A stretch of 2,400 bases of DNA from Escherichia coli (lineage in GTDB: Bacteria; Pseudomonadota; Gammaproteobacteria; Enterobacterales; Enterobacteriaceae): NCBI RefSeq assembly GCF_003334255.1, contig NZ_QOWU01000135.1. The stretch is one strand, 5' to 3'. The notes beneath the pieces are model-generated. The model did not search any database and was not told the origin of the DNA. It saw only the letters and a list, made by a program, of their open reading frames with translations. The position numbers and the translations under genes were made by a program. Numbering within the stretch: the stretch's first letter is position 1; each line of letters starts with the position of its first letter. This document shows, piece by piece, positions 1 through 2,400 of this stretch.

Positions 1-22
1 AAAAACGAGTATTTTTAGTCAT
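1..22 (-). CDS. IS3-family transposase OrfA, N-terminal 7 codons only (MTKNTRF...), 3' part outside window
   Basis: ATG at 22-20 on the minus strand, preceded by AGAGG (minus strand, positions 35-31) at suitable spacing. The translation MTKNTRF is the characteristic start of IS629/IS1203-type OrfA. Only 22 nt are in the window, so the call rests on context. Confidence 0.5.
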
Positions 23-30
23 CCTGTTTA

Positions 31-35
31 CCTCT
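31..35 (-). promoter_or_regulatory. Shine-Dalgarno (AGAGG) for the IS3-family orfA
   Basis: AGAGG on the minus strand, 8 nt upstream of the ATG at 22-20. Confidence 0.45.
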
Positions 36-101
36 TTCTCAGGGAGTTTAGTCTCCAGGATTTCCGGGGCGGTTCAATCTGATATAGACGGACATCTAAG
101 T

Positions 102-527
102 ATGGAATTACAGGACTGGCGAAAAGAACCTCGTAAAAACTATTCGAATGAATTCAAACTTCGTATGGTGGAACTGGCATCACAACCTGGAGCTTGTGTT
201 GCACAGATTGCACGTGAAAATGGCGTCAATGATAATGTTATTTTCAAATGGCTCAGGCTCTGGCAGAACGAAGGGCGTGTTTCGCGGCGTCTTCCGGTAA
301 CGACCTCTTCTGACACTGGCGTTGAATTATTACCTGTAGAAATAACGCCGGATGAGCAGAAAGAACCTGTGGCGGCCATTGCGCCGTCTTTATCCACTTC
401 CACTCAGACCAGAGTCAGTGCCAGTTCCTGCAAGGTGGAATTCCGTCACGGTAACATGACGCTGGAAAATCCATCGCCAGAGCTGCTCACGGTGTTGATC
501 CGTGAACTGACCGGGAGGGGGCGATGA
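102..527 (+). CDS. tnpA: IS66-family TnpA (Orf1), small helix-turn-helix DNA-binding protein, 141 aa
   Basis: ORF track 102..527. The N-terminal segment NYSNEFKLRMVELASQPGACVAQIARENGVNDNVIFKWLRLW has the transposase-type HTH signature. It sits immediately upstream of tnpB and overlaps it by ATGA. The start at 102 is the first in-frame ATG but has a weak RBS; the frame stays open upstream, so the true start is uncertain. Confidence 0.85.
   Translation: MELQDWRKEPRKNYSNEFKLRMVELASQPGACVAQIARENGVNDNVIFKWLRLWQNEGRVSRRLPVTTSSDTGVELLPVEITPDEQKEPVAAIAPSLSTSTQTRVSASSCKVEFRHGNMTLENPSPELLTVLIRELTGRGR
514..518 (+). promoter_or_regulatory. Shine-Dalgarno (GGAGG within GGGAGGGGG) for tnpB, embedded in the 3' end of tnpA
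   Basis: GGAGG at 514-518, 5 nt upstream of the tnpB ATG at 524. Confidence 0.55.
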
Positions 528-874
528 TCTCGCTCCCATCAGACACTCGAATCTGGCTGGTTGCCGGCGTTACTGATATGCGTAAATCCTTCAACGGTCT
601 GGGTGAACAGGTACAACATGTGCTGGATGAGACCCCCTTCTCCGGTCACCTGTTCATCTTCCGTGGCCGACGGAGTGACATGATTAAAATCCTCTGGGCT
701 GATGCTGATGGTCTGTGCCTGTTCACCAAACGCCTGGAGGAAGGCCAGTTTATCTGGCCTGCGGTGCGTGACGGTAAGGTATCCATTACCCGCTCGCAGC
801 TGGCAATGCTCCTCGATAAGCTGGACTGGCGTCAGCCAAAAACATCCCGTCTTAACGCACTGACAATGTTGTAA
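524..874 (+). CDS. tnpB: IS66-family Orf2 / TnpB accessory protein, 116 aa
   Basis: ORF track 524..874. The translation MISLPSDTRIWLVAGVTDMRKSFNGLGEQVQ...IFRGRRSDMIKILWADADGLCLFTKRLE is the highly conserved IS66 Orf2 sequence. The ATG at 524-526 overlaps the tnpA TGA at 525-527, and a strong SD lies upstream. Confidence 0.9.
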   Translation: MISLPSDTRIWLVAGVTDMRKSFNGLGEQVQHVLDETPFSGHLFIFRGRRSDMIKILWADADGLCLFTKRLEEGQFIWPAVRDGKVSITRSQLAMLLDKLDWRQPKTSRLNALTML

Positions 875-904
875 AAATGTCATGGCCGGATTATAAAAAC
901 GGTC

Positions 905-2400
905 ATGAGTCGGAAATACCTCATTCGTATCACTGAGCTGGAAAGGCTGCTCTCTGAGCAGGCTGAAGCCCTCCGTCAGAAAGACCAGCAACTGAGTCTG
1001 GTTGAAGAGACGGAAGCCTTCCTGCGCTCTGCACTGACACGTGCCGAAGAAAAGATCGAAGAAGATGAACGGGAAATAGAACATCTGCGGGCTCAGATAG
1101 AAAAACTGCGCCGGATGCTGTTCGGTACCCGTTCTGAAAAACTGCGTCGTGAAGTTGAACTGGCTGAGGCTCTGCTGAAACAACGTGAACAGGACAGCGA
1201 TCGTTACAGTGGGCGGGAAGACGATCCTCAGGTTCCCCGCCAGTTGCGACAGTCGCGCCATCGTCGTCCGTTACCGGCACACCTTCCCCGTGAAATACAC
1301 CGCCTGGAGCCAGAAGAAAGCTGTTGCCCGGAGTGTGGCGGTGAGCTGGATTATCTGGGGGAAGTCAGCGCTGAACAGCTGGAACTGGTGAGCAGTGCCC
1401 TGAAAGTGATCCGCACAGAACGGGTAAAAAAAGCCTGTACAAAATGTGACTGTATTGTTGAAGCACCGGCGCCGTCCCGCCCGATAGAGCGTGGTATCGC
1501 GGGCCCCGGATTACTTGCCCGCGTGTTAACGGGAAAATACAGCGAACATCTGCCACTGTATCGTCAGAGTGAAATCTTTGCCCGCCAGGGTGTCGAACTG
1601 AGCCGGGCCTTACTCTCCAACTGGGTTGACGCGTGCTGCCAGTTAATGACACCGGTGAATGATGCCCTGTACCGTTATGTAATGAACACCCGCAAGGTTC
1701 ACACTGATGACACACCGGTAAAGGTACTGGCACCGGGTCAGAAAAAGGCGAAAACAGGGCGTATCTGGACGTATGTCCGGGATGATCGCAATGTGGGTTC
1801 GTCATCTCCTCCAGCGGTCTGGTTCGCGTACTCGCCGAACCGGCAGGGGAAACACCCGGAGCAACACCTCCGCCCCTTCCGGGGTATCCTGCAGGCGGAT
1901 GCGTTCACAGGTTACGACAGGTTGTTCAGTGCAGAACGTGAAGGTGGTGCACTGACAGAAGTTGCGTGCTGGGCCCATGCCCGGCGAAAAATCCACGATG
2001 TATACATCAGCAGCAAAAGTGCGACGGCAGAAGAAGCCCTGAAGCGAATCAGTGAACTGTACGCCATCGAGGATGAAATACGGGGATTACCGGAGTCAGA
2101 GCGTCTTGCCGTCAGGCAGCAGCGAAGCAAAGTGTTACTGACGTCGCTGCATGAATGGATGGTGGAGAAGAATGGTACGCTGTCGAAAAAATCCAGACTG
2201 GGCGAAGCGTTCAGCTATGTACTGAATCAGTGGGATGCCCTCTGTTATTACAGTGATGACGGTCTGGCGGAGGCGGATAATAATGCTGCGGAAAGAGCGC
2301 TTCGTGCAGTCTGTCTCGGAAAGAAAAACTCTTATGACCTTTGTCAAATATTGAGCCCAAAAAGACCTTACGCAGCTCCGGGAGCTTCGTTATATCGCGG
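905..2400 (+). CDS. tnpC: IS66-family transposase TnpC (DDE transposase), 3'-incomplete in window; the last ~23 codons diverge from the conserved family sequence
   Basis: Frame 2 is open from the ATG at 905 to the window end, and my own translation confirms it. The N-terminal region is a charged coiled coil (ELERLLSEQAEALRQKDQQL...IEHLRAQIEKLRRMLFGTRSEKL) containing the IS66 FGxxSEK motif. Candidate catalytic residues are D at 1706-1711 (HTDDTPV), D at 1898-1900 (ILQADAFTGY) and E at 2291-2293 (NNAAERALR). The start has no obvious SD. Confidence 0.85.
   Translation, partial: MSRKYLIRITELERLLSEQAEALRQKDQQLSLVEETEAFLRSALTRAEEKIEEDEREIEHLRAQIEKLRRMLFGTRSEKLRREVELAEALLKQREQDSDRYSGREDDPQVPRQLRQSRHRRPLPAHLPREIHRLEPEESCCPECGGELDYLGEVSAEQLELVSSALKVIRTERVKKACTKCDCIVEAPAPSRPIERGIAGPGLLARVLTGKYSEHLPLYRQSEIFARQGVELSRALLSNWVDACCQLMTPVNDALYRYVMNTRKVHTDDTPVKVLAPGQKKAKTGRIWTYVRDDRNVGSSSPPAVWFAYSPNRQGKHPEQHLRPFRGILQADAFTGYDRLFSAEREGGALTEVACWAHARRKIHDVYISSKSATAEEALKRISELYAIEDEIRGLPESERLAVRQQRSKVLLTSLHEWMVEKNGTLSKKSRLGEAFSYVLNQWDALCYYSDDGLAEADNNAAERALRAVCLGKKNSYDLCQILSPKRPYAAPGASLYR
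1322..1453 (+). other. Cys-rich zinc-ribbon motif within TnpC (CCPECGG ... CTKCDC)
   Basis: Translated cysteines at codons starting 1322, 1325 and 1334 (SCCPECGG) and at 1436, 1445 and 1451 (CTKCDC), spaced as in the IS66 transposase zinc-finger domain. Confidence 0.6.

What the first reader, a model, noticed from the sequence alone, without database searches (positions are those of the whole stretch)
2374..2386. Perfect 6-bp inverted repeat AGCTCC-G-GGAGCT in the divergent tail
A short palindrome lies in the region that no longer looks like tnpC. The loop is too tight for a stable hairpin, so if functional it is more likely a dimeric protein-binding or restriction-type site. It could also be chance.
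Basis: seen in the sequence. Interest (0 to 1): 0.12.

Follow-up and report, generated by a model that had tools for sequence, protein, structure and literature searches.

The report
Small hairpin in ISEc45's right end
The palindrome is the tip of a small stem-loop near the right end of ISEc45, a known RNA-guided (IS110/IS1111-type) insertion sequence that has jumped into the transposase gene of another insertion sequence; it is a minor, probably accessory feature of a known element.

Summary
The palindrome AGCTCC-G-GGAGCT is real (window 2374-2386) and extends to 10-nt arms with one mismatch (2370-2390). As a class it is at chance level: 7 such inverted repeats in the window against 6.2 expected.

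The 'divergent tail' (2331-2400) is the last 70 bp of ISEc45. This IS110-family, IS1111-group element sits antisense in the ISEc23 (IS66-family) tnpC gene, at codons K-N|F of the conserved GRKNWLF motif, with a 2-bp CT core.

In IS sense the palindrome is at 1391-1403 of 1446. That is 20 nt past the closing helix of the covariation-supported bridge-RNA core and 22 nt before a conserved TTGACA and the sub-terminal repeat. It matches neither guide loop.

Across five related lineages the lower seven base pairs persist: three invariant, three with compensatory double changes. The apical TCC/GGA that makes the perfect palindrome is ISEc45-specific, and loop length varies from 3 to 10 nt. That pattern fits a stem-loop, not a dimeric protein or restriction site.

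The most likely role is a 3' boundary or insulator hairpin on the transposase-bridge RNA transcript (inferred, confidence about 0.5). It fails a standard terminator test, and its stability is ordinary.

The element is already catalogued, so interest is low.

The parts
905..2330 (+). ISEc23 (IS66-family) tnpC, truncated after codon N475 of the G-K-K-N|F-M-F motif. This is the target gene of the insertion.
   Evidence: NCBIfam NF033517 transpos_IS66 at 398 bits. An intact copy reads gaaagaaaaaCTttatgttc. PGAP annotates it as an ISEc23 pseudogene in L001.
2329..2330 (.). CT core dinucleotide (AG in IS sense). It is present at both junctions of the insertion.
   Evidence: Left junction aaaaaCT|cttatgacc, right junction ataccatCT|ttatgttc, empty site aaaaaCTttatg. 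The same core occurs in about 50 reconstructed sites.
2331..2400 (-). Last 70 bp of the right end (RE) non-coding region of ISEc45. This is IS-sense 1377-1446 of 1446; the transposase gene lies beyond the window on the - strand.
   Evidence: 100% identical to plasmid NZ_CP060062, where the IS110-like ISEc45 transposase is annotated 250 bp further on. Durrant 2024 Suppl. Table 5 lists ISEc45 as IS1111 group with its bridge RNA in the RE.
2334..2342 (-). Sub-terminal inverted repeat of the RE (AAAGGTCAT in IS sense). Its partner ATGACCTTT lies at IS positions 9-17 of the LE, outside the window.
   Evidence: Direct reading of the element ends. GGTCATAAG is invariant in all relatives.
2342..2347 (-). 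TTGACA (IS sense 1430-1435), a conserved -35-like hexamer. In a circular RE-LE junction it would lie 17 nt upstream of TATGAC.
   Evidence: TTGAnA is conserved at this position across the clade. The junction-promoter role is inferred by analogy with ISEc11.
2353..2368 (-). Weak second hairpin with a U5 run (GGUCUUUUUGGGCUC in IS sense). It contains a second copy of AAGGTC.
   Evidence: MFE folds. Not conserved in relatives.
2370..2390 (-). Stem-loop ACGAAGCUCC-C-GGAGCUGCGU (IS sense 1387-1407). Seven lower pairs are conserved in the ISEc45 subclade.
   Evidence: for the arms. -8.5 kcal/mol as RNA. Present in the MFE fold of the whole NCR. In alignment A2 there are 3 invariant pairs, 3 pairs with compensatory double changes and 82% of cells paired, against 21-46% when the partner is slid.
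2374..2386 (.). The reported perfect palindrome AGCTCC-G-GGAGCT. It comprises pairs 5-7 of the conserved stem plus the ISEc45-specific apical TCC/GGA.
   Evidence: The apical 3 bp are absent from L084, L087, L089 and L090, which have 8-10 nt loops instead.

Best explanation
Window 2331-2400 is the right end of ISEc45, an IS110-family, IS1111-group, bridge/seekRNA-guided insertion sequence. It is inserted antisense into the ISEc23 tnpC gene at its preferred site. The palindrome is the apex of a 21-nt stem-loop in the non-coding region downstream of the ISEc45 transposase gene. It lies 20 nt after the closing helix (P1) of the roughly 170-nt bridge-RNA core, which carries the target- and donor-binding loops. 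It lies 22 nt before the conserved TTGACA and the sub-terminal repeat at the element's tip.

Shown here: the location, the identity of the element, the bridge-RNA core with guides that match target and donor, and conservation of the lower stem by compensatory changes.

Inferred: the hairpin forms in the tail of the transposase-bridge RNA transcript and acts as a 3' boundary or insulator. It could be a weak termination or pause site, or an exonuclease stop, separating the functional RNA from the -35 and recombination end. The perfect 6-bp symmetry with a 1-nt spacer is a lineage-specific extension of that stem, not a recognition site.
For: Element identity and junction.

Listing as IS1111 group with RE bridge RNA.

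Bridge-RNA core: 13 of 23 consensus pairs have compensatory changes.

Guides: the 5' side of the target loop, AAGAAUU, pairs with the right flank AGTTyTT. The 3' side, CAnnnAG, tracks the left flank plus core. The CACGU variant sits at CACGT|AG sites; the CAUAU variant sits at CATAA / CACAT / AATAT|AG sites.

The palindrome matches neither target nor donor.

Stem conservation: in five lineages (ISEc45, Salmonella L084, L087, L089, L090/L215/L009) pairs 36-59, 38-57 and 42-53 change on both sides (A-U/G-C, G-C/A-U, C-G/U-A) and 3 pairs are invariant. 0 of 500 shuffles reach the observed pairing or covariation, and slid controls give 21-46% paired against 72.5% (82% for the lower helix). The flanking tail sequence is otherwise poorly conserved.

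The hairpin persists in the MFE fold of the whole 266-nt NCR.

60 of 62 ISEc45-type tails collected keep it intact.

Clade-wide, the strongest local hairpin of the RE tail ends 19-40 nt before the element end in 23 of 29 distinct tails, against 28% of shuffles.

In ISEc11 the functional RNA and the RE end are separable at 46 bp from the end, the same boundary zone.
Against: Stability is ordinary. The ISEc45 tail has an MFE z-score of +0.10 and the clade mean is only -0.62.

The hairpin is not a canonical intrinsic terminator. The U5 run starts 6 nt after the stem and is absent from relatives, and the terminator scan does not call it.

Covariation rests on only five lineages, and one stem position is a persistent mismatch.

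The clade-wide consensus fold predicts no conserved structure in the tail.

A variant with two unpaired substitutions exists (L203/L207).

No G-U pairs reveal which strand is the folding one.

There are no expression or 3'-end data, and Rfam has no match.

The 19-40 nt window was chosen after seeing the data, and the sequences are related to each other.
Confidence: 0.5

Rival explanations
1. Neutral or chance palindrome. The tail between the bridge-RNA core and the RE tip is a loosely constrained spacer. A short inverted repeat arose there by chance and is carried along with every ISEc45 copy without any role.
For: Palindromes of this class occur at the chance rate, 7 against 6.2 +/- 3.1. The tail MFE z-score is +0.10. 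The tail is not conserved across the clade, and RNAalifold predicts no structure there. The apical part is ISEc45-specific. A variant with two unpaired changes exists. ISEc11 tolerates a 745-bp insertion at the comparable position.
Against: Three of seven lower-stem pairs show compensatory double changes in an otherwise fast-diverging stretch, and the 3' half CTGyG-AGG is an island of conservation. Hairpins cluster at the same distance from the RE end across subclades.
Confidence: 0.3
2. The hairpin acts on the opposite (window +) strand. Guide-determined orientation always places ISEc45 antisense to IS66 tnpC. The hairpin would impede read-through from the IS66 promoter into the element, which would otherwise make RNA antisense to the bridge RNA and transposase mRNA.
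For: Orientation relative to tnpC is fixed in all loci examined. The + strand RNA folds equally well, at -8.0 kcal/mol. L089's A.C mismatch at the stem base would be a G.U pair on this strand.
Against: No U-tract follows the stem on this strand (UAUAUCGCGG). The terminator scan finds nothing there. The truncated tnpC frame is open for 47 codons through the hairpin, so ribosomes would unwind it. The support is a single-sequence hint only.
Confidence: 0.1
3. Double-stranded DNA site. The palindrome would be bound by a dimeric protein (transposase, host factor or regulator), or be a restriction/modification site.
For: Perfect dyad symmetry with a 1-nt centre. It lies near the recombination end of the element.
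Against: The symmetric apical arms are not conserved in relatives. 7 to 10 nt lie between the conserved lower half-sites, which would change helical phasing. Base changes are compensatory rather than sequence-preserving. In this family, donor and target recognition is by RNA guides at the element tips. No recurrence was found outside ISEc45 copies.
Confidence: 0.05

Closest known systems
ISEc11 and other IS1111-family elements with a downstream seekRNA (Siddiquee et al. 2024, PMC11187229)
   Same: DEDD transposase, short LE and long non-coding RE, and sub-terminal inverted repeats. The RNA downstream of tnp has segments matching both target strands. Insertion is site-specific without duplication, and the -35 sits at the RE tip. 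The functional RNA is separable from the last roughly 46-70 bp of the RE.
   Different: The ISEc45 transposase is 377 aa, against 330-350 aa typical of IS1111 relatives. The target is a transposase gene motif. No stem-loop between the seekRNA and the RE tip is described for ISEc11 in the text read. Nothing about ISEc45 has been tested experimentally.
IS621 bridge RNA (Durrant et al. 2024, PMC11208160; Hiraizumi et al. 2024)
   Same: Two internal loops, one pairing with target and one with donor, and a 2-bp CT core. In each loop one guide is complementary to one strand and the other guide is same-sense as the flank plus core.
   Different: In IS621 the RNA is in the LE, upstream of the recombinase, and the sub-terminal repeats are 2-3 bp. 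Here the RNA is in the RE and the sub-terminal repeat is 9 bp. The hairpin studied here lies outside both loops.
ISEc21 (IS110 family) targeting the DDE-coding region of IS3-family transposase genes (PMC11187229)
   Same: An RNA-guided IS whose natural target is a conserved coding motif in another IS family's transposase gene.
   Different: ISEc21 belongs to a different IS110 subgroup with an upstream NCR, and its target family is IS3. Here the target is the IS66 TnpC G(R/K)KN(W/Y/F)LF motif.
Rho-independent (intrinsic) terminators; the predicted terminator after ssr9 in ISPpu9 (PMC12288879)
   Same: A G+C-containing hairpin at the end of an IS-encoded non-coding RNA region, upstream of the element end.
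   Different: The U-run begins 6 nt after the stem and is not conserved, the stem is only -8.5 kcal/mol, and the consensus scan does not call it.

Membership tests
IS110 family, IS1111 group (bridge/seekRNA-guided insertion sequences) | DEDD (RuvC-like) transposase with the PF01548 and PF02371 domains | tested here: met
   NF033542 'IS110 family RNA-guided transposase' scores 278 bits against a cutoff of 140. PF01548 and PF02371 are found on all relatives. The gene lies outside the window, in L001 8506-9639(-).
IS110 family, IS1111 group (bridge/seekRNA-guided insertion sequences) | Long non-coding region downstream of tnp (RE) and a short LE | tested here: met
   The RE non-coding region is 251 nt and the LE 61 nt. 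Durrant Suppl. Table 5 lists ISEc45 as bridge RNA end RE, group IS1111.
IS110 family, IS1111 group (bridge/seekRNA-guided insertion sequences) | Sub-terminal inverted repeats of 7-17 bp | tested here: met
   ATGACCTTT (IS 9-17) pairs with AAAGGTCAT (IS 1435-1443; window 2334-2342).
IS110 family, IS1111 group (bridge/seekRNA-guided insertion sequences) | Site- and orientation-specific insertion at a short core, without a conventional target duplication | tested here: met
   The empty site is compared with the filled site. About 50 reconstructed sites share the CT (or TT) core inside the same IS66 motif, all in the same orientation.
IS110 family, IS1111 group (bridge/seekRNA-guided insertion sequences) | The NCR encodes a structured RNA whose loops are complementary to target and donor | tested here: met
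   The consensus structure has 13 of 23 pairs compensatory. Guide variants track flank variants. This is computational only; expression and protein binding were not testable.
IS110 family, IS1111 group (bridge/seekRNA-guided insertion sequences) | Circular intermediate with a promoter assembled at the RE-LE junction | not testable with these tools
   The sequence would give TTGACA-17 nt-TATGAC at the junction. The -10 is weak because it lacks T6.
Intrinsic (Rho-independent) terminator | Stable G+C-rich stem followed within 0-2 nt by a U-tract | tested here: not met
   The scan of L001 8200-9760 does not call it. The U5 run starts 6 nt after the stem, relatives lack the U-run, and the stem energy is -8.5 kcal/mol.
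Dimeric protein-binding or restriction-type palindromic DNA site | Half-site sequence and spacing conserved in homologous elements | tested here: not met
   The apical arms TCC/GGA are absent from relatives. The spacing between conserved halves varies, and changes are compensatory rather than sequence-preserving. Actual protein binding was not testable.
Any curated RNA family (Rfam 15) | Covariance-model match | tested here: not met
   No match up to E = 1 over L001 8150-9800 on either strand.

The most novel reading that the evidence does not exclude
The stem-loop is a functional, previously undescribed module of IS1111-type elements: a positionally conserved 3' hairpin that sets the 3' end of the transposase-bridge RNA transcript, or insulates the junction promoter from it. 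It sits in a clade of RNA-guided insertion sequences that is specialised, across phyla, on destroying IS66-family transposase genes at one conserved motif.
Probability: 0.3. Interest if true: 0.35.

Novelty: already known. Interest (0 to 1): 0.15.

Why it matters
For the palindrome itself, little. It explains the 'divergent tail' as the tip of a catalogued mobile element, and it removes a candidate protein or restriction site.

If the hairpin really marks the 3' boundary of the bridge-RNA transcript, it would help define the minimal RNA and the minimal right end of IS1111-type recombinases. That is useful when such systems are engineered.

The surrounding observations are of more interest to mobile-element biologists than the palindrome is:
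- a whole clade of RNA-guided IS aimed at one IS66 transposase motif;
- natural guide variants that track their target variants;
- rearrangements at the element's own guide-coding DNA.

They remain extensions of published principles.

Tried and rejected
1. Rfam scan of the element on both strands found nothing.

2. The terminator and promoter consensus scan called no terminator at the hairpin and no promoter in the element.

3. I searched the NCR for matches to target and donor, to test whether the palindrome is a guide. It is not; the guides lie upstream.

4. The thermodynamic test of the tail gave a z-score of +0.10 for ISEc45, so stability alone gives no support.

5. The clade-wide consensus fold of the tail predicted no alignable conserved structure. 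Support therefore comes only from the close subclade and from positional clustering.

6. Four further relatives at 66-70% identity were fetched to enlarge the subclade. They belong to other subclades with unrelated hairpins, so the covariation sample stayed at five lineages.

7. The restriction-site reading has no test available and no supporting evidence. The 13-mer contains only common short sites (my own reading of the sequence).

8. Literature searches for ISEc45, and for IS110/IS1111 elements targeting IS66, found only resistome listings and the two 2024 catalogues. Neither catalogue mentions IS66. ISfinder could not be consulted.

Full report
OBSERVATION. The 13-mer AGCTCCGGGAGCT is at window 2374-2386, with perfect 6-nt arms around one central base. 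The inverted repeat extends to 10-nt arms, 2370-2379 and 2381-2390, with one mismatch. As a class this is not unusual. The window holds 7 perfect 6-bp-arm inverted repeats with loops of 0-10 nt, against 6.2 +/- 3.1 in dinucleotide shuffles, and 42% of shuffles have one with a 1-nt spacer.

WHAT THE TAIL IS. Window 77-2400 is 100% identical to E. coli plasmids such as NZ_CP060062. Their annotation shows ISEc23 (IS66-family) tnpA, tnpB and a truncated tnpC. These are followed on the opposite strand by an 'IS110-like element ISEc45 family transposase', and then by the C-terminal remnant of the IS66 transposase. A chromosomal locus has the same arrangement.

Comparison with an intact ISEc23 (gaaagaaaaaCTttatgttc) fixes the insertion. 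tnpC ends at window 2330, and the inserted element is 1446 bp including one copy of a CT core that is present at both junctions. Window 2331-2400 is therefore the last 70 bp of ISEc45.

In IS sense the transposase occupies 62-1195, so the 251-nt non-coding region lies downstream of the gene and only 61 nt lie upstream. Nine-bp sub-terminal inverted repeats are present: ATGACCTTT and AAAGGTCAT. The protein matches NF033542, 'IS110 family RNA-guided transposase'. Supplementary Table 5 of Durrant et al. 2024 lists ISEc45 as IS1111 group with the bridge RNA detected in the RE. Full-length ISEc45 is present in 587 of 5426 complete E. coli genomes. The 60 nt around the palindrome occur in 868 places in 621 genomes.

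THE RNA CONTEXT. I fetched relatives of the transposase at 47-93% identity from genomes, metagenomes and plasmids. All have the same layout. Their downstream regions share strongly conserved blocks and end in TTGAnAAnGGTCATAAG.

A consensus fold of 17-27 distinct sequences gives three elements: a long closing helix P1 that starts right after the stop codon, an arm with an internal loop closed by CCUCG/nGAGG, and an arm with the hairpin GGGGnnnnnnCCCC. 13 of 23 predicted pairs show compensatory changes.

The loops behave as guides:
- The 5' side of the first loop (AAGAAUU / AAAAAUU) is complementary to the right flank AGTTCTT / AATTTTT.
- Its 3' side (CAGCCAG) is same-sense as the left flank plus core, CAGCC|AG. 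It varies with the flank. ISEc45 copies carrying CACGUAG sit mostly at CACGT|AG. Copies carrying CAUAUAG, as in the window's element, sit at CATAA|AG, CACAT|AG or AATAT|AG.
- The second loop carries AUAAGAG, which equals the RE tip CATAAG|AG.

This is the bridge/seekRNA architecture described by Durrant 2024 and Siddiquee 2024.

WHERE THE PALINDROME SITS. In IS sense the palindrome is 1391-1403 and the extended hairpin is 1387-1407. That is 20 nt after the 3' strand of P1 (which ends at about 1366) and 22 nt before TTGACA (1430-1435). It has no match to target or donor. It lies in the stretch that is not conserved across the clade and for which the consensus fold predicts nothing.

IS THE HAIRPIN CONSTRAINED? 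The close relatives are Salmonella L084 (86% aa identity), L087 (79%), L089 (74%) and L090/L215/L009 (75%). In these the tail is otherwise very divergent, yet MAFFT aligns both stem halves. The sequences are:
- ISEc45: ACGAAGC-UCCCGGA-GCUGCGU
- L087: GCGAAGC-UGUUUCAG-GCUGCGC
- L084: GCGGAGU-CCAUUACUGA-ACUGCGC
- L090: GCACAG-AAAAAUCAGG-CUGUGC

Of the seven lower pairs, three never vary and three change on both sides (A-U/G-C, G-C/A-U, C-G/U-A). One is a mismatch in three lineages and C-G in two. 82% of cells are paired, against 21-46% when the partner is slid, and no shuffle out of 500 reaches the observed pairing or covariation score.

The apical three pairs (UCC/GGA) that create the perfect palindrome exist only in ISEc45; relatives have 8-10 nt loops. 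The predicted fold opens the top C-G pair to give a 3-nt loop, at -8.5 kcal/mol as RNA and -6.4 as DNA. The hairpin also appears in the MFE fold of the whole 266-nt region. 60 of 62 ISEc45-type tails in the collected loci keep it. Two, probably one insertion, carry two unpaired substitutions.

Beyond the subclade, other lineages have unrelated hairpins at a similar place. The strongest local hairpin of the last 112 nt ends 19-40 nt before the element end in 23 of 29 distinct tails, against 28% of shuffles. That window was chosen after seeing the data and the sequences are related, so this is supportive only.

LIMITS. Thermodynamically the tail is unremarkable: the z-score is +0.10 for ISEc45 and the clade mean is -0.62. 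The hairpin is not a canonical terminator. The U5 run starts 6 nt after the stem, relatives lack it, and the scan does not call it. No G-U pairs show which strand folds. Five lineages is a small sample.

INTERPRETATION. The most likely reading is a small stem-loop in the 3' tail of the transposase-bridge RNA transcript. It would mark the boundary between the functional RNA and the recombination end plus -35 hexamer, possibly as a pause or weak termination site or an exonuclease stop. In ISEc11 the RNA-coding region supplied in trans ends 46 bp from the element end, and a 745-bp cargo is tolerated at that point. That fits such a boundary zone, but equally suggests that nothing there is essential. 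I put 0.5 on a constrained stem-loop with this kind of role, 0.3 on a neutral or chance feature, 0.1 on a role on the opposite strand against read-through from tnpC, and 0.05 on a duplex protein or restriction site.

COMPARISON AND NOVELTY. The element is catalogued, and its bridge RNA was predicted to lie in the RE. The palindrome is a minor feature of it, so the finding counts as already known in kind.

Several context observations were not found in the papers I could search. These are the clade-wide specificity for the IS66 TnpC motif, the natural guide variants, and the partial tandem duplications that start exactly at the element's own guide-coding DNA. They are listed under things noticed in passing.

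Noticed in passing
window 2321-2335; loci L005-L026, L084-L092, L095-L221: Every relative whose RE ends in GGTCATAAG is inserted at the same place, always antisense. The hosts include E. coli, Salmonella, Enterobacter, Vibrio, Nitrosomonas, Rhizobium, Novosphingobium and the planctomycete Limnoglobus. The site is between the second and third bases of ...AAGAAC|T GG..., the codons for K-N-W of the IS66-family TnpC motif G(R/K)KN(W/Y/F)(L/M/V)F. 45 or more of 51 reconstructed empty sites translate to ...AERAxRPxxxGRKNWLFxGS.... This looks like a clade of RNA-guided IS specialised on inactivating IS66 transposase genes. It was not mentioned in the papers searched.
   Followed up: partly
L001 8420-8432 (IS sense 1269-1275); loci: There are two natural variants of the left-target guide within ISEc45. 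CACGUAG copies lie mostly at CACGT|AG sites (IS66 relatives encoding KNYVF). CAUAUAG copies, as in the window's element, lie at CATAA / CACAT / AATAT|AG sites. This looks like natural re-programming within a single IS 'species'.
   Followed up: partly
L111 4866-5046 (+); L112 12047-12174 (-): Two metagenome contigs carry ISEc45 followed by a second partial RE. One restarts exactly at IS position 1275, the AG|AAAGAGG of the target-loop guide. The other restarts at 1328, the AG of AAUAAG|AG in the donor-loop guide. This suggests recombination at the element's own guide-coding DNA, which mimics target and donor.
   Followed up: partly
L012 and L018 (Rhizobium sp. ASV20): Two relatives sit in a different transposase gene. 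Its product reads ...GGRKHWLWRAVDQDG... and ...KGKKYWLWRAVDQDG..., which from memory looks IS6-like. The nucleotides around the core resemble the IS66 site. This may be an off-target or secondary target.
   Followed up: no
window 1-76: The window starts with the terminal 76 nt of an IS3-family element (IS1203/IS629-like, reverse orientation). It replaces the first 60 bp of ISEc23, including its terminal repeat GTAAGCG; compare L003 2439-2498. This ISEc23 copy is therefore disrupted twice.
   Followed up: partly
window 2331-2346: BLAST alignments to intact ISEc23 run on to 2343-2346, past the true junction at 2330. The cause is that the ISEc45 tip (CTTATGACCTTTG) resembles the continuing tnpC sequence (TTTATGTTCTTTG). 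This explains why the divergence seems to start later than it does.
   Followed up: yes
window 2404-2410 equivalent (L001 8328-8334; IS sense 1367-1373): GUUCUUU lies directly after helix P1. It is complementary to AAAGAAC in the left target flank, 4-10 nt from the core, and is conserved in the ISEc45 subclade only. It could be an extra guide or a coincidence, because the target is itself a partial palindrome (AAAGAA...TTCTTT).
   Followed up: no
window 2330-2400 and L001 8254-8397: The truncated tnpC frame stays open for 47 codons into the ISEc45 right end, reading through the palindrome (...YAAPGAS...) before a stop.
   Followed up: yes
window 2364-2369 and 2335-2340: AAGGTC, the core of the sub-terminal repeat, occurs a second time 29 nt further inside, immediately after the hairpin. 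Relatives have AGGATAAG / AGGACAAG there, which loosely resembles the RE tip AGGTCATAAG.
   Followed up: no
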